Source of the DNA: Gemmatimonadota bacterium
GTDB taxonomy: Bacteria; Gemmatimonadota; Gemmatimonadetes; JACCXV01; JAHWKZ01
NCBI GenBank assembly: GCA_035249945.1
Contig: DATFFS010000033.1
Span: forward strand, 1 to 49,125
Length of the DNA: 49,125 bases
Reading direction: 5' to 3'
Both the position numbers and the translations under genes were made by a program. The notes under the pieces were generated by a model. That model ran no database searches and had not been told where the DNA came from. It saw only the letters and a list, made by a program, of their open reading frames with translations. Of this stretch, positions 21,868-29,396 are shown piece after piece (the first letter of the stretch is position 1; the number at the start of each line of letters is the position of its first letter).

Positions 21868-23226
21868 TCAATGGTCTACCGGCAGTCCGCTCGGCACCTG
21901 GTCGGGCACGATGTTCGACAGGTTCCGGGCCCGCTCGTCGGTCAGCGCGCTCATGAACGCCATCAGCCGGTCGGTGACGCTGTCGGGGAACGCGACCCCG
22001 TCGATGATCGTGTCCCTGGTCGCGAGGATCTGGATGTGATTGGGAACCAGCGTTCCCTGGAGCAAGCCCTCGAGCTGTCCGACGTCGTACTCCTGGAGCT
22101 TCTTCCCCGAGTCGCTGTAGTGATCGATGAAGGCGCGCAGCTCCGTGAATTGTCCGGCGTGGCCGAAGGGGCCCGTCAGCTCCACGTTCCTGAGCGGGGT
22201 CGTCCGGAACTTGTAGATGTCCCTCGGATTTCCCGTCACCCGCTGACGGCCGAAATCGTCGTCTCCCAGGGGGCCGTCTCCCTGCCCCGGACCGAACTGC
22301 GCCAGCGCGACGTTGTGGAACTCGTCATCGCTGAACGTGGCACCGTTGTGGCAGATCGAGCAGCGGATCTCCATGAACACCTTGGCGCCTCGGAGCTGAC
22401 TCTCTGTCATGGCCCGGTCGCTCCCTGCCAGGAATCTGTCCCACGGGGTGTCGTTGAAGGCCAGCCGATCGAGGAGGAAGCCCGCCATCGCGTTCGAAGC
22501 GTGGGCGAACGTCATCTCCTCGAAGGGCGTCCCCGGGTAGGCGGCCTCGAACATCGCCACGTACTCCGGGATCGCTCCCAGGCGTGCCATGATGCCCGCC
22601 CAGATCCCCGGGAAATCCCGATCGTCGATCATTGCGAGCTCGTTCACGATTCCGAAGGCTCGCATCTCCTCCCGCGACGTGACCGGAAAGAGTCCGAGGG
22701 CGGAGATCGCGCCGAACTCGAAGGCCGCCGCCATTCCCGGCGTGATCGCGTCGCCGGCGGGAGTATGGAAGCCGCCCAGGTCGTCGACCTGTACGCGACC
22801 ATCCCAGAACAGGTGCCGGATGGCGTGCAGGTTGAACAGGGGCGGCGCATTCCTGGGAATGAAGAGACCCTCGGGGTGGATGCGGTCCCTACCCAGGCCC
22901 GTCGCTCCCTGGCCGATCGAGAGGCGCCGTCCATCGCCGGTGCCGAATCCGGGCAGGTGGCACGTCATGCACGAAATGTCGCGGTTGCCGCTCAGCTCCT
23001 TGTCGAAGACCAGTGCCTGTCCGAGAACGCTGAGCTCCGGCCGCACGAGCGAAGGCAACGCGAGCGGGACGACATTCCGTCCGGCGGCCAGTTGGCGCAC
23101 GCTGTCGGCCAGCGTGAGCTCTGGCTCGGGCTCGGGGCTCGTGCCCGCGGGGCCCGCGGGCTCCTCGCCACAGGCAGCTGACAGAAATACCAGACACAGG
23201 ATCTGAAGGAACAGGACGATGCGCAT
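21868..23226 (-). CDS. di-haem cytochrome c peroxidase / MauG family lipoprotein
   Basis: Run-on ORF 21868..23730 trimmed to ATG 23226 (MRIVLFLQILCLVFLSAACG lipobox). Two C-x-x-C-H haem motifs are present (CMTCH, CSICH). Confidence 0.8.
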   Translation of the reverse strand: MRIVLFLQILCLVFLSAACGEEPAGPAGTSPEPEPELTLADSVRQLAAGRNVVPLALPSLVRPELSVLGQALVFDKELSGNRDISCMTCHLPGFGTGDGRRLSIGQGATGLGRDRIHPEGLFIPRNAPPLFNLHAIRHLFWDGRVQVDDLGGFHTPAGDAITPGMAAAFEFGAISALGLFPVTSREEMRAFGIVNELAMIDDRDFPGIWAGIMARLGAIPEYVAMFEAAYPGTPFEEMTFAHASNAMAGFLLDRLAFNDTPWDRFLAGSDRAMTESQLRGAKVFMEIRCSICHNGATFSDDEFHNVALAQFGPGQGDGPLGDDDFGRQRVTGNPRDIYKFRTTPLRNVELTGPFGHAGQFTELRAFIDHYSDSGKKLQEYDVGQLEGLLQGTLVPNHIQILATRDTIIDGVAFPDSVTDRLMAFMSALTDERARNLSNIVPDQVPSGLPVDH

Positions 23227-23356
23227 GTTGCCGCCTGTGCGGATGGTGAAGCGGAACGATGGTTCAACGGCGTCTCCCCCTACATACGGAAAACCGAGCA
23301 GCCGTCCGACATCGGCTCTGGCGGGCGGGCCTCTCCGCCCCCAACTTGCGTTGACG

Positions 23357-26065
23357 ATGGACGCGGATCGCTGGCGCCGGGTGCAGCAGGTGCTGGACGC
23401 TGCGCTCACCCGCAAGCCGGGCGAGTGGCCCGCCCTGCTCGATGAGACCTGCAGCGACGACCCCGAGCTCCGCCAGGAGGTCGAGGCGCTGCTCGCCCGG
23501 GTCGACACCGCGCAACGCTTTCTCGAATCTCCTCCCGCCGCGCTCGCGGCCGCCCTGGCCGCTGAGGAGGCCGCGGCGAGCGCCGGCCACATGGGGCGTC
23601 GCATCGGCGCGTACCGTCTCGTAGAGGAGATCGGGCGTGGCGGCATGGCGCGCGTCTTTCTCGCCGAGCGCGCCGACGGCCAGTTCGAGCATCGGGTCGC
23701 GCTCAAGCTCCTGCGTCCCGGCCTGGACACGGAGATCGATCGGGAGCGCTTCCGCGCCGAGCGGCAGATCCTGGCGAACCTCGATCACCCGAACATCGCG
23801 CGGCTCCTGGATGGCGGCGTCACCGACGACGGCCAGCCGTATCTCGTGCTCGAGCTCGTGAAGGGTCGACCGATCGACGTTTTCTGCAACCAGGCTGAGC
23901 TGTCGCTGCGGGAGCGGCTGGACCTCTTCCTGACGGTCTGCGAGGCGACCAGGTACGCTCATGGACGTCTCGTCGTCCATCGCGACCTGAAGCCATCGAA
24001 CATCCTGGTCACCGAGGATGGCGTGGTGAAGCTCCTCGATTTCGGACTCGCCAAGCTCCTCGAGCCGCGAGCGCCTGTGCCATCGATGACGCGCACCGGA
24101 CAGCGCTGGATGACCCCGGAATATGCCGCCCCGGAGCAGATCCGAGGCGAGCCGGTCACCACGCTTACCGACGTCTATCAGCTGGGCATGGTGTTGTACC
24201 GGCTTCTGGTCGGCCAGGCCCCGTTCGCGGGTCGTCGCGCCGGCCTTCACGAACTCGAGGAGGCGGTCTTGCACGAGGAGCCGGAACGGCCGTCGTCGGC
24301 CGCATTCCGCGGCGGCGCCGTCGCGTGGAAGTCCCTTCGCGGTGACCTCGACGCGATCGTGCTGATGGCCATCCGCAAGGAACCCGAGCGGCGATACCCG
24401 TCCGCCGAGGCGATGGCGGCGGATCTCAGGCGATTCCGAGATACACGTCCGATCCTCGCTCGCCCGAACACGCTGCCGTACCGGTTCCGGAATTTCGCGC
24501 GTCGCCACCGCGGCGCGGTCGTGGCCGGAACCGCCGTGGTCCTCACGCTGATCGGGGCCTCGATCTTCTCCCTCCATCAGATGCGCGAAGCGCAGGAGCA
24601 GCGCGATGCGGCGCTCAGGGCGAGTGATCGGGCGGATGCGCAGGTGGAATTCCAGGGCGCCCTGTTGTCCGAAGTGGGCGACAGGCCGATCACTATGCGG
24701 GAGGTCCTGGACTCCGCCCGCAAGGTCCTGGAACGGCGATCCGGGGGCGACCCTCGACTCCAGACCGCGCTTCTGCTCCAGCTTGCAGAGGCCTATTCCA
24801 CACTGCACGACACCCGCAGCCGCGAGAACATGCTGATGCGCGCGGAATCGCTGGCGATGTCCGCCGCACCGGATCGGCTACCCGAGGTTCGGTGCCAGAT
24901 GGCGGACAATCTGCGGCTGGATGGCCGGTACGATGAGGCATGGCGGATGCTCGACGCCGCTGAAGGGTTGCGCCGGAGGGTCGTCCCCGACGACCCGGAC
25001 GTCGAGATCGCCTGCCTCGCCGCGCTTTCGTACCTCGCCAGTGAAGCCGGCGCTGACCGAGGTCGTACCGCGGAAGGCGTCACCGCGGCCCGCCGTGCCC
25101 TGGCGATCAAGGACAGCCTCGGACAGACGCGCGATCTGGCCTACCTGAATCTGTTGGGCGCCCTCGCATGGGCGCTCCATACGGAGGATCGGACGCGCGA
25201 GTCCGCCACGATCTTCCGGCGGGCTATCGCCGTGATGGACAGCGCCGGCAGACAGGGATCGGCCGACTACATGATTCAGCGACACAATCTGGGGGTCGCT
25301 CTGTGGAAGCTCGGCGAAATCGCGGAGGCCGAGCGGATCCTCGGCGAGGTCGTCCAGGCCGCCGAACGGATGGATCCCGGGCGCATTCCCTGGCAACCTG
25401 CGATCCACTACGCGGAAGCGGCCCTGACCACAGGAGATTCGCGATCGGCGCTCGAGTACTTCGACCGCGTGGTCGATCAGGCCGTACGCGATACGAGCCT
25501 CTACTGGGAGGGGCGCGGCTTGTTCGGCGCCGCCCGCGCCCAGATCCAGCTCGGACGGCTGGCGGAGGCTCGGCGCGCGAAGCTCCGGCTGGAGCAGATC
25601 ATTGCCCAGCATCCACAGGTCAAGGGCACGGACGATCAGGTGCCCGACGGACAGACTCTCGACGGCTGGCTCGCCATGGCGGAAGGCGATTGCGCGGAGG
25701 CGAGGGAGTCCTTCCTGGCGTCGCTGCGGGCCAATGGCTATTTCGAGGGGGAGCGCCAGCAACGCCTCCGACCGGTAGTGCTGCTCGCAGGGGAGTGTGC
25801 CCTGGCGCTCGGCGATCCGCAGGAGGCGCTCGACCTGGCCAGGCAGGCGCTCGAGATCGCTGTGATGGACTCGCTCTCGCATGGACGAAGCGCGGCGGTC
25901 GGCGAGGCGCTCCTCCTGGAGGCCCGCGCATTGCAGGCAAGGGGCGATGTTGGAGCCGCGGGCCAAGCTGCGCGCCGCGCTCTGGCCGCACTCCAGTTCG
26001 GGGCGGGCGCGGGCCACGCGCGCACGCGGGAGGCCCAGGCGCTTGTCGTAGCGCTGGGGTCCTAA
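23357..26065 (+). CDS. Ser/Thr protein kinase with one TM segment and a C-terminal TPR-like domain
   Basis: Trimmed to ATG 23357 (MDADRWRRVQQVLDAAL...). Kinase motifs are VALKLL, HRDLKPSNILV, DFGLAK and TPEYAAPEQ. The TM segment is AVVAGTAVVLTLIGASIF, followed by about 480 aa of helical repeats. Confidence 0.85.
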   Translation: MDADRWRRVQQVLDAALTRKPGEWPALLDETCSDDPELRQEVEALLARVDTAQRFLESPPAALAAALAAEEAAASAGHMGRRIGAYRLVEEIGRGGMARVFLAERADGQFEHRVALKLLRPGLDTEIDRERFRAERQILANLDHPNIARLLDGGVTDDGQPYLVLELVKGRPIDVFCNQAELSLRERLDLFLTVCEATRYAHGRLVVHRDLKPSNILVTEDGVVKLLDFGLAKLLEPRAPVPSMTRTGQRWMTPEYAAPEQIRGEPVTTLTDVYQLGMVLYRLLVGQAPFAGRRAGLHELEEAVLHEEPERPSSAAFRGGAVAWKSLRGDLDAIVLMAIRKEPERRYPSAEAMAADLRRFRDTRPILARPNTLPYRFRNFARRHRGAVVAGTAVVLTLIGASIFSLHQMREAQEQRDAALRASDRADAQVEFQGALLSEVGDRPITMREVLDSARKVLERRSGGDPRLQTALLLQLAEAYSTLHDTRSRENMLMRAESLAMSAAPDRLPEVRCQMADNLRLDGRYDEAWRMLDAAEGLRRRVVPDDPDVEIACLAALSYLASEAGADRGRTAEGVTAARRALAIKDSLGQTRDLAYLNLLGALAWALHTEDRTRESATIFRRAIAVMDSAGRQGSADYMIQRHNLGVALWKLGEIAEAERILGEVVQAAERMDPGRIPWQPAIHYAEAALTTGDSRSALEYFDRVVDQAVRDTSLYWEGRGLFGAARAQIQLGRLAEARRAKLRLEQIIAQHPQVKGTDDQVPDGQTLDGWLAMAEGDCAEARESFLASLRANGYFEGERQQRLRPVVLLAGECALALGDPQEALDLARQALEIAVMDSLSHGRSAAVGEALLLEARALQARGDVGAAGQAARRALAALQFGAGAGHARTREAQALVVALGS

Positions 26066-26078
26066 TCAGGAGTCGATC

Positions 26079-26630
26079 ATGAAACCTGACGAGCCAACGA
26101 CCCCTCCGCACGCGAGCGAAACTTCCTTCTCGATCGTCTACGATGAGTTGAAGCGAGTCGCCCGGCGACAACTCCGCGGCCAGGATGCCAACGCGACGCT
26201 CTGTACCACGGAGCTCGTTCACGAGGCGTACATGAAGCTGGGCAGCGCGGATGGCGATTGGGACAGCCGCGCTCACTTCTTCGGGTCGGCTTCCCGCGCC
26301 ATGCGTCAGGTCCTGGTCGACTTCGCGCGCCGGCGCCGAGCGGACAGGCGCGGTGGCTCCTGGCGGCGGGTCTCTCTGAGCGACGTCGGCGCCGCTTTGC
26401 AGATCGAACTGGATGAGATTCTGGCGCTCGACGACGCGCTCGAGCATCTCGACGCGGTGGATCCCCGGCTGCGGGAAGTCGTCGAGCTCCGGTTCTTCGG
26501 CGGCCTCTCCAACGAGGACGTCGGGCGGATCCTCGGTGTATCCCCCCGGACGGTGGAGCGCGATTGGCTGAAAGCGCGGCTCCTCCTGCTGCACGAGTTG
26601 CAACTCGCTCCGGGTTCGGATCCCGGCTAG
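26079..26630 (+). CDS. ECF-type sigma-70 factor (Sigma70_ECF / kinase-associated type)
   Basis: 183 aa. The pattern TELVHEAYMKL...HFFGSASRAMRQVLVDFARRR is typical of this ECF family, with a region 4 HTH (LSNEDVGRILGVSPRTVERDW). It starts 13 nt after the kinase stop. Confidence 0.8.
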   Translation: MKPDEPTTPPHASETSFSIVYDELKRVARRQLRGQDANATLCTTELVHEAYMKLGSADGDWDSRAHFFGSASRAMRQVLVDFARRRRADRRGGSWRRVSLSDVGAALQIELDEILALDDALEHLDAVDPRLREVVELRFFGGLSNEDVGRILGVSPRTVERDWLKARLLLLHELQLAPGSDPG

Positions 26631-26662
26631 CGCGACAGCCAGAGGCTCCCTCTCCGGACCCC

Positions 26663-26696
26663 AAAAACAAGCCGCCCGGCTTTCGCCGGGCGGCTC
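26663..26696 (-). terminator. Rho-independent terminator oriented for the minus strand
   Basis: Minus-strand read: GCCGCCCGGC-GAAA-GCCGGGCGGC, a perfect 10-bp stem extendable to 12 bp, immediately followed by UUGUUUUUGG. Confidence 0.7.
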
Positions 26697-27770
26697 TCGA
26701 CGCGCTGCACGAAGACAGCAAAAAATGAGGATCGGACGGGGCTGCGAGTCGCTTTCTCCTTCGAAGACTCGGCCGGTTCCGGCTTCGCGCGACCGCTCTC
26801 GCGGCCGGCGACTCCTCTCGTGGGGTTGGCGTCCCTTTCAGAGGTCGTACCGGCGAACCGTAGCGCGTCATCGGTTTCGCGCTCCCCCTCCGCCGTCAGC
26901 CACCGAAGTGGCCCCGGCCATGGGGTCTTCCTCGCTCGCCGGAGGCGCGTGGATGTCGAAGACGTCCGCGCACCGCCTCTCCTAGGGTTGGCTTCCCCTT
27001 CAGAGTATTGCCGGGCCGGCTTGCCGGCGCCCTCTCGGGCGCGGCGCCTCCCAGGAGTTCCTGCCCCTACAGCGTATGCAGATGCGGGAGCCCACTCACC
27101 CGGGATTTGCCTCGTCCCGGTTCGGGTGCGGCTGCAGGGTTTCTCACCCTCTTGCCGCGTTACGTCTCCCGCGTCCTTCCGACCGTTTAAGGCCGGTGAC
27201 GCTCATGGGGTTCTCCCCTTCGAAGCTTCTCCCTCCGGACGGAGCCGTGGCGCCTCTCGGCACCCGCTGCCCTCTTGCCGTTGTCGGCACTCGGCGTACG
27301 CAACCTAAGCTACGTACAACCGTTGGCAGACCCGGCTTCAGGGCCTTGCTCCCCGCCGGAGTCCGTCACGTTCGCACGGGGATTAGCCGTGCGGCCGCTC
27401 GCTGCTCCCCTGGGGTTCTCTCGCTCTAGGGCATTCCTCGAAGGCGTTGCCCCCGGCTTCCCGGCGGCTCCCCTCTCAGGCTTCTTCGCGGTTCGGCTTT
27501 CGCCGAGGCGACCGGCCTCCCAGGGTCTCGATCCGCTCTCGCGGTGCTGCGCTCCTCAGTCCGAAGAATGATCGGAGCCGCAACCCTTCTGCGATTTTCG
27601 CACCTCGTTTCCCTTCCGCGCGCTTCGAGCCGCGTCGTCCCGGGCTTGCGCCGAACGGTACCGGTAACATCGCTGTCCCGGATGTCCGTTCCATGGGACG
27701 TCCGTCGAGCTCTCCCGGAGGGCTCGCGGATGGAATGTCGGTGCCAGACTCGGGCCGTCATCCGACCCTC
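26663..27770 (-). ncRNA. candidate large (~1.1 kb) structured non-coding RNA, family unknown
   Basis: Bounded by a near-consensus promoter and an intrinsic terminator, with no credible ORF in any frame. It holds many perfect GNRA- and UUCG-capped hairpins and internally repeated modules. A 12-bp helix pairs nt 1-12 of the predicted transcript with 26738-26727. I found no match to the RNase P, tmRNA or SRP signature sequences that I can recall. Confidence 0.6.
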
Positions 27771-27776
27771 GACGCC

Positions 27777-27806
27777 AGTATACGGGACCCCTTCGCAAGG
27801 TGTCAA
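27777..27806 (-). promoter_or_regulatory. strong sigma70-type promoter driving the non-coding transcript
   Basis: On the minus strand: TTGACA (27806-27801), 18-nt spacer, TATACT (27782-27777). The -35 sits in the loop of the inverted repeat TCGCAA/TTGCGA (27793-27816). The expected TSS is near 27770. Confidence 0.65.
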
Positions 27807-28085
27807 ACCATTGCGAGAAAAAGGGTTACGGGACCGGTCGTCGAACGGCGCAAGGTGCTGGAGCGGGGCGGCTTGGAGTCCGCGAGCTAAACCGCCGGGT
27901 CAACTGATCGCCCCAACTGGGGCGCGTTCATCCGCTTGTAAGACTGCCAACATCGCAGACACGAAGGCTCCACAGGACCGCGCGAATTCTCCACTCCCTG
28001 TCCCCCGATTATCCACAGGTAATTCACACTTCAGGAACGATTCCCGAGGGGATGACTCCATACACGCGCGCAGCGCACGGCGCGG

Positions 28086-29396
28086 TCAGAGCAGATTTGC
28101 GGCGTACTCGGCGAGCTTGGACCGCTCGCCCTTCCGGAGCTCGACGTGCGCGGCCAGCGGCACGGTGCGGAAGTGGCTGACGACGTGATTGAAGCCGTTC
28201 GTGGAGGAGTCGATGTACGGCGTGTCGATCTGCCAGGGGTCGCCGGTCAGGACGAGCTTGGTGTTCTCCCCCACCCGCGTGAGGATCGTCTTGACCTCGA
28301 GGGGCGTCAGGTTCTGCGCCTCGTCGACGAGCATGAACTGCTGGGGGATCGACCGTCCCCGGATGTGCGTCAGCGGCTCGACGGCGAGCGCGCCCTTCTG
28401 GACCAGATCGTCGACGGTGCGGGTGCCGTTCCGCGCCGGCCGGCCGTCGAGGAGGAGCGCGAGGTTGTCGTAGATCGGCTGCATCCAGGGGTTGAGCTTC
28501 TGCTCGACCGAGCCCGGCAGGTAGCCGATGTCCTTCCCCATGGGGAACGTGGGCCGGGAGATGAGGAGGTGCCGATAGGTCGTGCGGTTCAGAACCTGCT
28601 CGAGCCCGGCGGCGAGCGCGAGCAGCGTCTTCCCCGTCCCCGCCTTCCCCATGATCGTCACCAGGACGACCGTCGGATCGAGGAGCGCGTCCAGCGCGAA
28701 GTACTGCTCCTTGTTCCGCGGGCGGATCCCCTGCACGCCCCCGGCGACGTCGATCAGCGCCCGCAGGACGCCGCCGACGGGATCGATCCGCGCGAGGGCC
28801 GTGTTCGACGGGTTCTCGCGGTCCTTGAGGAGCGCGTACTCGTTGGGAAAGAAGTCGCCCTCGGAGACGGGAAGCTGGCCGTTCGCGCGGAAGCGCTCGA
28901 GCTCCTCGGCATCCATCTCGATCTCGGTATGGCCGCTGTAGAGCTCGTCCAGGTCGACGCGGTCGGTCTCGTAGTCCTCGGCGACGAGCCCCATCGCGTC
29001 GGCCTTGATCCGGAGGTTCACGTCCTTCGTGACGAGGATGAGCGGCGTGTCCGGCGCGTCGTCCTGGATGCGCCGCGCGATCTTCAGGATCTCGTTGTCG
29101 ACCCAGCCGTCGGAGCGGGCGATCACCCGCTGCGGGTCGTCGGGGTCGAAGACCACTCTCAGCCGGCCGCCGGCGTCCAGCTCCACGCCGTCGGAGAGCC
29201 GCCCGCGCTCCCTGAGACCGTCGAGGAAGCGGCTGATCCAGCGCGCGTTCTCGCCCAGGCGCGTCAGCTGCTTCTTGAACCGGTCGATCTCTTCGATGAC
29301 GTAGATGGGGACCAGGACGGAGTTGTCCTGGAAGGCGGTCAGGGCCGTGGGGTCGTGGAGCAGGACGTTGGTGTCGAGGAGGTAGCGCTTCCTCAT
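28086..29396 (-). CDS. PhoH2-type protein: N-terminal PIN domain fused to a PhoH-like ATPase
   Basis: 436 aa. PIN N-terminus YLLDTNVLLHDP, Walker A GKAGTGKT, Walker B LVDEAQN, and GDPWQID. Confidence 0.85.
   Translation of the reverse strand: MRKRYLLDTNVLLHDPTALTAFQDNSVLVPIYVIEEIDRFKKQLTRLGENARWISRFLDGLRERGRLSDGVELDAGGRLRVVFDPDDPQRVIARSDGWVDNEILKIARRIQDDAPDTPLILVTKDVNLRIKADAMGLVAEDYETDRVDLDELYSGHTEIEMDAEELERFRANGQLPVSEGDFFPNEYALLKDRENPSNTALARIDPVGGVLRALIDVAGGVQGIRPRNKEQYFALDALLDPTVVLVTIMGKAGTGKTLLALAAGLEQVLNRTTYRHLLISRPTFPMGKDIGYLPGSVEQKLNPWMQPIYDNLALLLDGRPARNGTRTVDDLVQKGALAVEPLTHIRGRSIPQQFMLVDEAQNLTPLEVKTILTRVGENTKLVLTGDPWQIDTPYIDSSTNGFNHVVSHFRTVPLAAHVELRKGERSKLAEYAANLL

What the first reader, a model, noticed from the sequence alone, without database searches (positions are those of the whole stretch)
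26727..27770. 12-bp terminal helix pairs the predicted +1 nucleotide of the RNA with its 3' end
The first 12 nt after the expected start site are GAGGGUCGGAUG (27770-27759), beginning exactly 7 nt after the -10 hexamer. They are complementary to CGUCCGAUCCUC (26738-26727) with 10 Watson-Crick and 2 G-U pairs and no mismatch. The 3' strand is followed directly by CAUUUUUU and, about 30 nt later, by the terminator hairpin. After a 6x6 internal loop a further 6 bp can form, CGAGUC (27752-27747) with GACUCG (26750-26745). This competes with a local 7-bp helix, GAGUCGC (26813-26807) with GCGACUC (26751-26745). An end-to-end closing helix enclosing about 1,044 nt is what a globular folded RNA domain looks like, as with P1-type helices of large ribozymes and riboswitch-like RNAs. 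It also independently supports the promoter-derived 5' end. I have not computed a chance probability for this pairing.
Basis: seen in the sequence. Interest (0 to 1): 0.75.

Follow-up and report, generated by a model that had tools for sequence, protein, structure and literature searches.

The report
Closing helix of new 1-kb RNA
The 12-bp pairing is real: it is the closing stem of a conserved, abundantly transcribed, roughly 1,045-nt structured non-coding RNA that I could not find in Rfam 15 or in seven literature searches, and it occurs in Gemmatimonadota, Planctomycetota, an Eisenbacteria MAG and unassigned environmental contigs.

Summary
GAGGGUCGGAUG (27770-27759) pairs with CGUCCGAUCCUC (26738-26727) without mismatch. 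The helix is in the MFE and centroid folds, and 2 of 5000 shuffles match it near the 3' end.

It is the outer part of an interrupted terminal stem of about 21 bp (P1, P1b, P2). This stem closes an RNA gene of about 1,044 nt on the minus strand.

I found 130+ homologues. Thirteen lie downstream of PIN-PhoH genes in Gemmatimonadota, Planctomycetota and Eisenbacteria. Another 120 are environmental contigs, mostly about 1,055 nt, whose ends coincide with the predicted RNA ends, so they look like assembled transcripts.

The terminal helix is kept in three unrelated sequence versions. In 20 loci its first G lies 6-7 nt after the -10 hexamer, and a U-tract follows in 21 of 21 loci. P2 covaries at every pair.

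The body folds into five arms built from a repeated module of helix, 3x3 loop, helix. It is non-coding.

There is no Rfam 15 match and no literature hit. Function is unknown. My best reading is that the stem seals the ends and defines the 3' end of a stable scaffold RNA, possibly linked to PhoH2.

The parts
27807..27829 (-). Conserved element upstream of the promoter (GTAAC..TTT..GCAATGG), possibly UP-like
   Evidence: GTAACyC-TTT-N-GCAAT(G/A)(G/A) directly upstream of the -35 hexamer is shared by the Gemmatimonadota loci. Its function is inferred.
27777..27806 (-). Sigma-70-type promoter: TTGACA (27806-27801), 18-nt spacer, TATACT (27782-27777)
   Evidence: It matches 11 of 12 consensus positions and is the only site in 1.8 kb, with 0.1 expected. 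Both hexamers are conserved in position in 20 homologous loci.
27759..27770 (-). P1 5' strand, GAGGGUCGGAUG. G27770 is the predicted +1.
   Evidence: (93.8% of cells paired in clade A).
26727..26738 (-). P1 3' strand, CGUCCGAUCCUC. C26727 is the inferred mature 3' end.
   Evidence: In the sister clade, homologous transcript contigs end at the helix.
27754..27756 (-). P1b 5' strand, GGC (pairs with 26742-26740)
   Evidence: Present in the MFE fold and in the duplex fold. A short middle helix at the equivalent place is predicted in every clade A member.
26740..26742 (-). P1b 3' strand, GCC
27747..27752 (-). P2 5' strand, CGAGUC
   Evidence: The P2 sequence differs in each clade A member yet always pairs. 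In clade B all 8 P2 pairs show changes on both sides.
26745..26750 (-). P2 3' strand, GACUCG
27600..27744 (-). Arm D1, closed by P3 (GCACC 27744-27740 with GGUGC 27604-27600)
   Evidence: RNAalifold on 69 homologues gives P3 as 100% paired with 3 covarying pairs, for example GACACC/GGUGU in L006 and L007. This arm is much reduced in the Eisenbacteria homologue L009.
27421..27594 (-). Arm D2, closed by UCGC-AGA-AGGGU ... GCCCU-AGA-GCGA
27215..27415 (-). Arm D3, closed by CCCC-AGG-GGAGC ... GCUUC-GAA-GGGG
27064..27210 (-). Arm D4, the most conserved domain (CCCCAUGAGCG ... AGAGGGU-loop-AAACCCUG ... GCUGUAGGGG)
   Evidence: Covariance model R1 of this arm scores 135.9 bits at window 27060-27218 on the minus strand.
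26756..27057 (-). Arm D5, closed by CUCC..GGAG ... CUUC-GAA-GGAG. It contains two copies of ACUCUGAAGGG..CAACCC..GAGAGG.
   Evidence: (direct repeat D1, 87% identity).
26720..26725 (-). U6 tract one nucleotide after P1
   Evidence: A U-run follows the terminal helix in all 21 homologous loci where the downstream sequence is available.
26697..26719 (-). Conserved 3' trailer, GCUGUCUUCGUGCAGCGCGUCGA, containing a small hairpin (GCUG/CAGC)
   Evidence: Nearly identical across the Gemmatimonadota loci. The hairpin is in the MFE fold. Its role is unknown.
26663..26696 (-). Canonical intrinsic terminator: a 12-bp stem with a GAAA loop (26696-26669) followed by a U-run
   Evidence: The stem sequence GCCGCCCGGC/GCCGGGCGGC is conserved across the Gemmatimonadota loci.
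28086..29396 (-). Upstream gene on the same strand: PIN-PhoH (PhoH2)
   Evidence: Pfam PIN_4 at 4e-32 and PhoH at 8e-50. It is the only neighbour conserved across phyla, in 15 loci.

Best explanation
The 12-bp pairing is the outermost helix (P1) of an independently transcribed, non-coding, highly structured RNA of about 1,044 nt (27770-26727, minus strand). This RNA belongs to a family I could not find described.

Shown:
- P1, a 3-bp P1b and a 6-bp P2 form an interrupted terminal stem. The stem clamps the first transcribed nucleotide to the 3' end.
- The stem closes a junction from which five arms (D1-D5) radiate.
- The arms are built largely from a repeated module: 4-5 bp, a 3x3 purine-rich internal loop, then 4-5 bp.

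Inferred mechanism:
- Transcription starts at G27770.
- When the 3' strand emerges it pairs with the 5' end. The U-tract that follows makes P1 a terminator-like or exonuclease-stop structure.
- Read-through transcripts end at the downstream canonical terminator. They are trimmed back to the base of P1, which leaves a flush-ended RNA that resists exonucleases.
- The mature RNA is an abundant scaffold, either an RNP or an RNA-only assembly.

More speculative: the PIN-PhoH (PhoH2) nuclease-helicase encoded just upstream in many lineages processes or remodels this RNA.
For: The helix is present as described and is in the MFE and centroid folds. It is unlikely by chance: 2 of 5000 shuffles, and 0 of 120 shuffled folds.

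Homologues were found in 13 of 80 PhoH2 loci and in 120 environmental contigs.

The terminal helix is kept with three unrelated sequences, and the matrix of cognate against non-cognate end-pairing energies is block-diagonal. L009 differs from the window by compensatory changes at positions 9-11. In clade B, P1 is 90.8% paired with AU, UA, CG and UG at one pair, and P2 shows both-side changes at 8 of 8 pairs. No shuffle of 500 reaches the observed values, and slid controls give 31-48% paired against 88%. In clade A, P1 is 93.8% paired, and the first ~26 nt pair with the last ~28 nt in every member at -31 to -43 kcal/mol.

The first helix nucleotide lies 6-7 nt after the -10 hexamer in 20 loci, across clades whose helix sequences differ. 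A U-tract follows the helix in 21 of 21 loci.

The environmental contigs have a median length of 1,055 nt, occur in both orientations, start about 11 nt after the predicted +1 and end 0-13 nt before the end of P1. The L116 junction joins the two helix strands directly, with no U-tail.

The whole RNA has z = -7.7 against shuffles, and about 48 helices nearly all covary. It is non-coding: 93 of 122 gaps have length 1 mod 3, and substitutions are even across the three phases.

There is no Rfam 15 match and no hit in the literature.
Against: There are no transcript data for this organism or for its clade. All transcript-like contigs belong to the sister clades, so the mature ends at 27770 and 26727 are inferred by homology.

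That the ~1,050-nt contigs are metatranscriptome assemblies is inferred from their size and boundaries. It is not taken from sample metadata.

Within the window's own clade the P1 5' strand hardly varies. Covariation there is weak: 2 both-side changes, not beyond the shuffle control.

The Gemmatimonadota 3' trailer and terminator stem are unusually conserved. The functional RNA could therefore extend beyond P1.

A helix with a 1-kb 'loop' is not known to terminate transcription, and the presence of a second, canonical terminator suggests read-through.

The PhoH2 link is not universal. L103, L110 and L129 lack it, and 67 of 80 PhoH2 loci lack the RNA.

The function itself is untested.
Confidence: 0.75

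Rival explanations
1. P1 plus the adjacent U-tract is itself the intrinsic terminator, a hairpin whose 'loop' is the entire 1-kb RNA. The RNA would measure its own completion, and the 3' end would be made by termination rather than by trimming.
For: A U-run follows the helix directly in 21 of 21 loci. The base of the helix is G+C-rich. Several Planctomycetota loci (L047, L059, L110) show no obvious second terminator within about 60 nt.
Against: Transcript contigs and the L116 junction end at the helix without a U-tail, whereas termination leaves several U. Gemmatimonadota loci, L084 and L129 carry a canonical terminator 30-60 nt downstream, which implies read-through. The consensus scan does not call it, because its loop limit is 3-8 nt. 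No precedent that I know of.
Confidence: 0.25
2. The RNA is made, at least partly, as a covalently closed circle. P1 would align the two ends for ligation, for example by an RtcB-type ligase.
For: Two of 120 contigs have 123-nt terminal overlaps, the signature of a circular or tandem template. In L116 the 1,048-nt unit is joined exactly at a 20-nt palindrome formed by the 3' and 5' strands of the terminal helix.
Against: Only 2 of 120 contigs show this. L097's 932-nt circle lacks P1, P2 and about 100 nt of the 5' end, so its junction is elsewhere. End-to-end junctions also arise when reverse transcriptase switches template on very abundant RNAs. L104, L115 and L172 show 3'-end-to-internal joins that look like such artefacts. 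Most contigs are linear with ends at the helix.
Confidence: 0.1
3. The region is a long structured 3' UTR or cis-regulatory element of the phoH2 mRNA, not a separate gene.
For: It lies 316 nt downstream of phoH2 on the same strand. The synteny is kept in 15 loci from at least three phyla.
Against: It has its own conserved -35 and -10 hexamers, correctly spaced from the helix start, in every locus. It occurs without phoH2 in L103, L110 and L129. The transcript-sized contigs start at the helix, not inside phoH2.
Confidence: 0.05
4. The 12-bp complementarity is a chance match in a G+C-rich intergenic region or in an unannotated or decayed coding region.
For: In 31% of shuffled sequences the MFE fold has some pairing between the two ends. 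High-GC DNA gives many spurious ORFs and helices.
Against: The shuffle tests, conservation in 130+ homologues with compensatory changes, and the frameshifting indels and flat codon-phase profile.
Confidence: 0.01

Closest known systems
Large 'ornate' bacterial ncRNAs of unknown or emerging function: OLE, GOLLD, ROOL, raiA, HEARO (Rfam families; reviewed in PMC12054373 and 10.1101/2024.12.08.627333)
   Same: The RNA is several hundred to about 1,000 nt, multi-domain and rich in GNRA-type loops. Both sequence and structure are strongly conserved. It has its own promoter and is abundant in environmental RNA. It was recognised by comparative analysis before any function was known.
   Different: No covariance-model match to any of them. 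The host phyla differ (Gemmatimonadota, Planctomycetota, Eisenbacteria). It is longer than any of them as I recall their sizes (about 1,045 nt). It has no phage context and no oap-type genes nearby. Its architecture is distinctive: five arms made of a repeated helix, 3x3 loop, helix module, closed by a flush terminal stem followed by a U-tract.
Helix 1 of 23S rRNA and the central-junction layout of large rRNAs; P1-type closing helices of RNase P RNA and group I introns
   Same: A long-range helix pairs the 5' and 3' ends and closes a junction from which several domains radiate. This is established knowledge of those RNAs.
   Different: No sequence or covariance-model similarity. Here the 5' strand begins at the transcription start itself and the 3' strand abuts a U-tract. 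In rRNA the ends are cut out of a longer precursor by RNase III and other nucleases.
Rho-independent (intrinsic) terminators
   Same: A G+C-rich helix is followed immediately by a U-run, and this is conserved in 21 of 21 loci.
   Different: The two strands are about 1,020 nt apart instead of 3-8 nt. A canonical terminator also follows in the window. Mature homologous transcripts lack the U-tail.
6S RNA, Y RNAs and SRP RNA: stable RNAs whose ends are paired in a terminal stem
   Same: The paired ends form the closing stem of a stable, abundant, trans-acting RNA. The 3' end appears trimmed to the stem.
   Different: Those RNAs are 100-200 nt (SRP RNA up to about 300 nt) and essentially a single rod or rod plus a small domain. 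There is no Rfam match, and no rsr/Ro or other partner gene nearby.
Group II introns (six domains around a central wheel)
   Same: The size range is similar, and several domains radiate from a central junction with the ends close together.
   Different: No match to Intron_gpII or the D1-D4 models even at E up to 10. There is no reverse transcriptase or maturase ORF, and no flanking exons. The RNA has its own promoter at the first nucleotide. A terminal base-paired stem is not a group II feature.

Membership tests
Any Rfam 15 family (4,227 models, including OLE, GOLLD, ROOL, raiA, HEARO, RNase P, 6S, tmRNA, SRP, group I/II introns, rRNAs) | Covariance-model score at or above the family's gathering threshold | tested here: not met
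   No match in the whole window at gathering score. At E up to 10 on 26400-28100 there are only noise hits of at most 18 bits, mostly to the terminator hairpin.
Structured non-coding RNA gene (generic) | Base pairs maintained by compensatory substitutions across homologues | tested here: met
   P2 shows both-side changes at 8 of 8 pairs, and 0 of 500 shuffles reach the observed values. About 48 helices nearly all have covarying pairs. P1 exists in three sequence versions.
Structured non-coding RNA gene (generic) | No protein-coding signature | tested here: met
   93 of 122 alignment gaps have length 1 mod 3. Substitutions are spread evenly over the three phases. No stop-free frame is conserved.
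Structured non-coding RNA gene (generic) | Own transcription signals and evidence of a discrete transcript | tested here: met
   Promoter and terminator are present and conserved in 20 loci. 103 of 120 environmental contigs are at most 1,110 nt with ends at the RNA's ends. The transcript nature of those contigs is inferred, and none comes from the window's own clade.
Intrinsic terminator | G+C-rich stem directly followed by a U-run | tested here: met
   P1 is followed by A and U6 in the window. A U-run follows in 21 of 21 loci.
Intrinsic terminator | Short hairpin loop (3-8 nt), so that the stem forms in the RNA exit channel | tested here: not met
   The strands are 1,020 nt apart. The scan reports only the canonical hairpin at 26696-26669.
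Viroid-like / Obelisk-type circular RNA replicons | Circular RNA with no DNA template, a rod-like fold, and self-cleaving ribozymes or an Oblin ORF | tested here: not met
   The RNA is encoded in MAG chromosome-type contigs behind a promoter. Its fold is branched, not rod-like. There is no ribozyme match and no conserved ORF. Only 2 of 120 contigs are circular-type.
Type III toxin-antitoxin RNA antitoxins (ToxI-like), considered because of the PIN-domain neighbour | Tandem short repeats upstream of, and co-transcribed with, the toxin gene | tested here: not met
   The RNA lies downstream of the PIN-PhoH gene and has its own promoter. Its repeats are dispersed structural modules, not a tandem array.
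Group II intron | Conserved domain V/VI and 5' GUGYG; intron-encoded protein in many | tested here: not met
   No RF00029 or D1-D4 hit at E up to 10. The 5' end is GAGGG or GCGACG and lies at a promoter.
PhoH2-associated element (hypothetical grouping) | Obligate genetic linkage with PIN-PhoH | tested here: inconclusive
   Linked in 15 loci from Gemmatimonadota, Planctomycetota, Eisenbacteria and one unassigned contig. Absent from L103, L110 and L129 and from 67 of 80 PhoH2 loci, even with a covariance model.

The most novel reading that the evidence does not exclude
This is a previously unrecognised class of giant (about 1.05 kb) bacterial RNA. Its five arms arose by duplication of one structural module. 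It senses its own completion through a 1-kb-range helix that pairs the first transcribed nucleotide with the last and triggers termination or end maturation. The flush ends may be ligated into a circle. It may act as a self-assembling RNA scaffold or as a catalytic RNA, together with the PIN-PhoH nuclease-helicase.
Probability: 0.15. Interest if true: 0.92.

Novelty: categorically new. Interest (0 to 1): 0.85.

Why it matters
Bacterial RNAs of this size and degree of structural conservation are rare. Apart from rRNA, the known ones (RNase P RNA, group I and II introns, OLE, GOLLD, ROOL) have each opened a line of biochemistry or structural biology.

This one is longer than those as I recall their sizes, and it spans at least three phyla that are dominant in soil and sediment. 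Judging by the number of transcript-sized contigs, it is among the abundant non-ribosomal RNAs in those communities. Yet it appears in neither Rfam 15 nor the searchable literature.

The terminal helix makes the RNA experimentally tractable, because it defines exact ends (27770 and 26727). This gives a construct for in vitro transcription, probing and cryo-EM, and a simple compensatory-mutation test. It also raises a mechanistic question: can a helix spanning 1 kb act in termination or 3'-end definition?

The repeated linkage with PIN-PhoH offers a first handle on the poorly understood PhoH2 family.

Tried and rejected
- Rfam: searched at gathering threshold on the whole window and at E up to 10 on the locus. 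Only noise was returned.
- tRNA and tmRNA scan: none found in the window.
- Literature: seven full-text searches on PhoH2 plus ncRNA, large structured RNAs in the relevant phyla, and ornate RNAs. Nothing concerns this RNA.
- Phage origin: the pattern scan of IMG/VR gave one chance match and one partial or chimeric contig. Rejected.
- More distant homologues next to PhoH2 in Myxococcota, Desulfuromonadota and other groups: neither a profile-HMM iteration nor a covariance model of arm D4 found any. The same 13 loci came back each time.
- Conserved neighbours other than PhoH2: ORF clustering across 20 loci found only clade-specific synteny, namely an aldehyde dehydrogenase upstream and kinase-family genes downstream.
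- Coding or pseudogene reading: rejected.
This happened because MAFFT does not align the P2 strands in structural register. Per-sequence duplex folding and the clade B mini-alignment settle P2.
- Source record: an exact lookup of the window's PhoH2 protein found nothing on record.
- K-turn, sarcin-ricin and CsrA-site readings of the repeated GAA/RGG 3x3 loops: I compared them with the consensus patterns from memory. None fits, and they were not tested further.
Full report
**1. The observation.**
Read on the minus strand, the locus runs as follows:
- TTGACA at 27806-27801, an 18-nt spacer, TATACT at 27782-27777, then GGCGTC.
- GAGGGUCGGAUG at 27770-27759.
- About 1 kb of G+A-rich sequence without a credible ORF.
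- CGUCCGAUCCUC at 26738-26727, then A and U6 at 26725-26720.
- A small hairpin, then a 12-bp terminator hairpin at 26696-26669 with a U-run to 26663.

The promoter-like site is the only one in 1.8 kb, where 0.1 is expected, and the terminator is the only one on that strand. CGAGUC (27752-27747) pairs with GACUCG (26750-26745).

RNAfold places both helices, plus a GGC:GCC helix between them (27756-27754 with 26742-26740), in the MFE and in the centroid. This holds for the primary-transcript model 26663-27770 and for 26727-27770. The '6x6 loop' therefore resolves into a 2x1 loop, 3 bp, and a 1x2 loop.

**2. Is it more than chance?**
- A run of at least 12 uninterrupted pairs starting at nucleotide +1 is found anywhere in the transcript in 0.9% of 5000 dinucleotide shuffles. 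It is found within the last 150 nt in 2 of 5000.
- None of 120 shuffled sequences has 12 end-to-end pairs in its MFE fold, but 31% have some. End proximity as such is generic, and the single-sequence argument is only moderate.
- The whole 1,044-nt RNA folds at -542.1 kcal/mol against -473.3 +/- 8.9 for shuffles, z = -7.7.

The decisive evidence is comparative.

**3. Homologues.**
The gene upstream on the same strand (29396-28086) is a PIN_4 + PhoH protein, PhoH2. Using it to fetch 80 loci from GTDB species genomes, nhmmer found the ~1.1-kb sequence immediately downstream of PhoH2, on the same strand, in:
- all 8 Gemmatimonadota loci;
- 3 Planctomycetales MAGs;
- 1 Phycisphaerae MAG;
- 1 Eisenbacteria MAG.

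The window is therefore from a Gemmatimonadota genome: L001 has 93% PhoH2 identity and 90% RNA identity.

A profile iteration and a covariance model of the most conserved arm found no further copies among the other 67 PhoH2 loci, and no second copy in the window.

**4. Transcript evidence.**
- The 120 environmental contigs have a median length of 1,055 nt (IQR 1,034-1,087), and 103 are at most 1,110 nt.
- The RNA lies in either orientation in the contig.
- Contig starts cluster about 11 nt after the position equivalent to +1 (10th-90th percentile 7-14 nt).
- Contig ends cluster 0-13 nt before the last nucleotide of the terminal helix.

DNA contigs would not begin and end at the borders of one intergenic element. 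These look like assembled transcripts of an abundant RNA. That is my inference, because the sample metadata were not available. Loss of about 10 nt at the 5' end is what I would expect from second-strand cDNA synthesis (my background knowledge, not tested here).

Many contigs end exactly with the 3' strand of the helix (...CCUCACGUCGC) and carry no U-tail.

One contig, L116, has a 123-nt overlap of its two ends. It represents a 1,048-nt circular or tandem unit whose junction is CUCAUCGUCG|CGACGAUGAG, that is, the 3' strand joined directly to the 5' strand. Whether this reflects a circular RNA or a template-switching artefact, it marks the two termini as the two ends of the helix.

**5. The terminal helix in the family.**
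Three sequence solutions exist.
- Clade A (Gemmatimonadota): -10 hexamer, N6-7, GAGGGUCGGAUG ... CGUCCGAUCCUC, A, U6. The Eisenbacteria homologue L009 reads TAATTT, N6, GAGGGUCGUGAUGG ... CCUCACGACUCUC, U5, with compensatory changes at positions 9-11.
- Clade B (Planctomycetota and most environmental sequences): -10 hexamer, N6-7, GCGACGUUGAGG ... CCUCACGUCGC, U7. Here the helix extends outward from the shared GAGG/CCUC instead of inward.
- L103: GUUGGGCGACACGAA ... UUCGUGUCGCCCAAC, U9, which is 15 perfect pairs of a different sequence.

Duplex energies between cognate ends, and between ends from the same group, are -14 to -32 kcal/mol. Between ends from different groups they are -6 to -15 kcal/mol.

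Counts on the clade B mini-alignment:
- P1 is 90.8% paired, and one pair takes AU, UA, CG and UG.
- P2 (GAUGCUCG/CGAGCAUC) has changes on both sides at all 8 pairs.
- All five measures exceed all 500 shuffles.
- Sliding the partner by 1-3 columns drops pairing from 88% to 31-48%.

In clade A, P1 is 93.8% paired, but the 5' strand barely varies. There are only 2 both-side changes, which is not beyond the shuffles. By contrast, P2 is rebuilt with a different sequence in every member: CGAGUC/GACUCG, GGUUCCU/AGGAACC, CCUGG..CCUG/CAGG..CCAGG and others. The first ~26 nt pair with the last ~28 nt at -31 to -43 kcal/mol in all nine sequences.

In 20 genomic loci the first helix nucleotide is a G lying 6-7 nt after the -10 hexamer, whichever helix sequence is used. 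A U-run follows the helix in all 21 loci with downstream sequence.

It overlaps a different covarying hairpin.

**6. What the helix closes.**
RNAalifold on 69 near-full-length homologues gives about 48 helices, almost all with several compensatory pairs.

Inside P2 the RNA forms five arms separated by linkers of 4-6 nt:
- D1, 27744-27600, closed by GCACC/GGUGC, which becomes ACACC/GGUGU in L006 and L007;
- D2, 27594-27421;
- D3, 27415-27215;
- D4, 27210-27064;
- D5, 27057-26756.

D2 to D5 are each closed by the same kind of module, which also recurs inside them, about nine times in all. The module is 4-5 bp, a 3x3 purine-rich internal loop, then 4-5 bp. An example is CCCC-AGG-GGAGC ... GCUUC-GAA-GGGG.

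The D4 model gives weak secondary hits in D3 and D5 of the same RNAs, and the repeat finder reports an 87% direct repeat inside D5. Both are consistent with growth by internal duplication.

D4 carries the most invariant sequence: CCCANGAGCG, AGAGGGU..AAACCCUG and GCUGWAGGG.

The region is non-coding. 93 of 122 alignment gaps have length 1 mod 3, and substitutions are flat over the three phases.

**7. How it most likely works.**
Shown:
- It is a discrete RNA gene with its own promoter.
- A conserved, covarying terminal stem joins the first transcribed nucleotide to the 3' end.
- A U-tract follows the stem.
- In the sister clades, abundant transcripts have ends at the helix and no U-tail.

Inferred:
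- P1 forms when the 3' strand is made.
- Together with the U-tract it either terminates transcription or, after read-through to the canonical terminator (26696-26663), stops 3'-to-5' trimming. Either route leaves a flush, exonuclease-resistant end, as I recall for other stable RNAs with paired ends.
- The stem also fixes the geometry of the five-arm junction.

The biological function is unknown. I commit to 'stable scaffold RNA (an RNP or an RNA-only assembly)' as the most likely class, at about 0.5. A functional tie to PhoH2, as a processing or remodelling factor or as a regulated partner, gets about 0.3.

The PhoH2 synteny spans at least three phyla. It is absent in L103, L110 and L129, and most PhoH2 genes lack the RNA.

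**8. Comparison with known systems.**
- No Rfam 15 family matches, at gathering score over the window or at E up to 10 over the locus.
- ARAGORN finds nothing.
- There is no phage context.
- Seven full-text searches found no description.

In kind it resembles the large ornate bacterial RNAs (OLE, GOLLD, ROOL, raiA). In layout it recalls 23S rRNA helix 1 with its radiating domains, or the closing stems of 6S and Y RNAs. It is a member of none of these.

The terminator resemblance meets the stem-plus-U-run criterion and fails the short-loop criterion.

**9. Caveats.**
- No expression data exist for the window's own clade.
- The metatranscriptomic nature of the short contigs is inferred.
- MAFFT alignments are not structure-guided, so the per-helix percentages are approximate. 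One search shows how a one-column register shift can hide a real helix.
- The conserved Gemmatimonadota trailer (26719-26697) and terminator stem remain unexplained. They may mean that the functional 3' end lies beyond P1 in this clade.

**10. Verdict.**
The helix turns out to be the handle on what appears to be an undescribed family of very large structured RNAs.

Noticed in passing
L116 (Ga0307927_1013301) and L097 (Ga0115591_1044112): Both contigs have exact 123-nt terminal overlaps, the signature of a circular or tandem assembly. L116 is a full 1,048-nt unit joined at a 20-nt palindrome made of the two terminal-helix strands. L097 is a 932-nt unit that lacks P1, P2 and about 100 nt of the 5' end. 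This could be circular RNA, a reverse-transcriptase template-switch artefact, or a permuted variant.
   Followed up: partly
L104, L115, L172 (3' ends of the contigs): After the mature 3' end (...CGUCGC or ...CUGUCGC) these contigs continue into an internal segment of the same RNA, about 100-270 nt upstream. The join points differ between contigs, so they are probably chimeric cDNA or assembly joins. An RNA-ligation product is not excluded.
   Followed up: partly
window 26697-26719 and 26669-26696 (minus strand): The 3' trailer GCUGUCU.GUGCAGCGCGUCGAGA and the terminator stem GCCGCCCGGC/GCCGGGCGGC are almost invariant across Gemmatimonadota species whose RNA bodies are only 74-77% identical. 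That is more conservation than a spacer and terminator should need.
   Followed up: no
window 27594-26756 (minus strand); nine sites, e.g. 27415-27404 with 27226-27215, and 27210-27199 with 27075-27064: A repeated building block of 4-5 bp, a 3x3 purine-rich internal loop (GAA, AAG, GAG or AGA opposite AGG, GGG, AUG or ACG), and 4-5 bp closes arms D2-D5 and recurs inside them. I could not match it to a named RNA motif; K-turn and sarcin-ricin patterns do not fit.
   Followed up: partly
L009:7990-8060 (Eisenbacteria MAG): This homologue keeps the GAGGGUCG start and the terminal stem, but arm D1 is reduced to about 30 nt (GGCACCGACACCCGGCAUCGCCGGGACGAGGUGC). D1 therefore appears dispensable for the core.
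   Followed up: no
Planctomycetota-type loci L041, L054, L059, L084, L110 (just after the terminal helix): The U-tract is followed by a conserved GCGC(G): UUUUUUUGCGCG. L041 has a second U7 after it. The meaning is unknown.
   Followed up: no
L006:7560-7600: The promoter spacer of this Gemmatimonadota locus contains a second copy of the P1 5' strand start (GAGGGTCGGGTATACT ... GAGGGTCGGACGAC), which overlaps the -10 hexamer.
   Followed up: no
window 23219-26630 (+) and L103:7917-8438: In the window, an ECF sigma factor (Sigma70_ECF) preceded by a Ser/Thr kinase with TPR repeats converges on the RNA's terminator. In L103, which lacks PhoH2, a convergent ORF that looks like an ECF sigma factor from its N-terminal sequence (not scanned against Pfam) also follows the RNA. 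These gene families are large in these phyla, so this is probably coincidence.
   Followed up: partly
L202 (IMGVR_UViG_3300028420_000243, 2,489 nt): A contig classed as viral begins with 148 nt of arm D4 of this RNA and then diverges. It is probably a chimeric or misclassified contig.
   Followed up: partly
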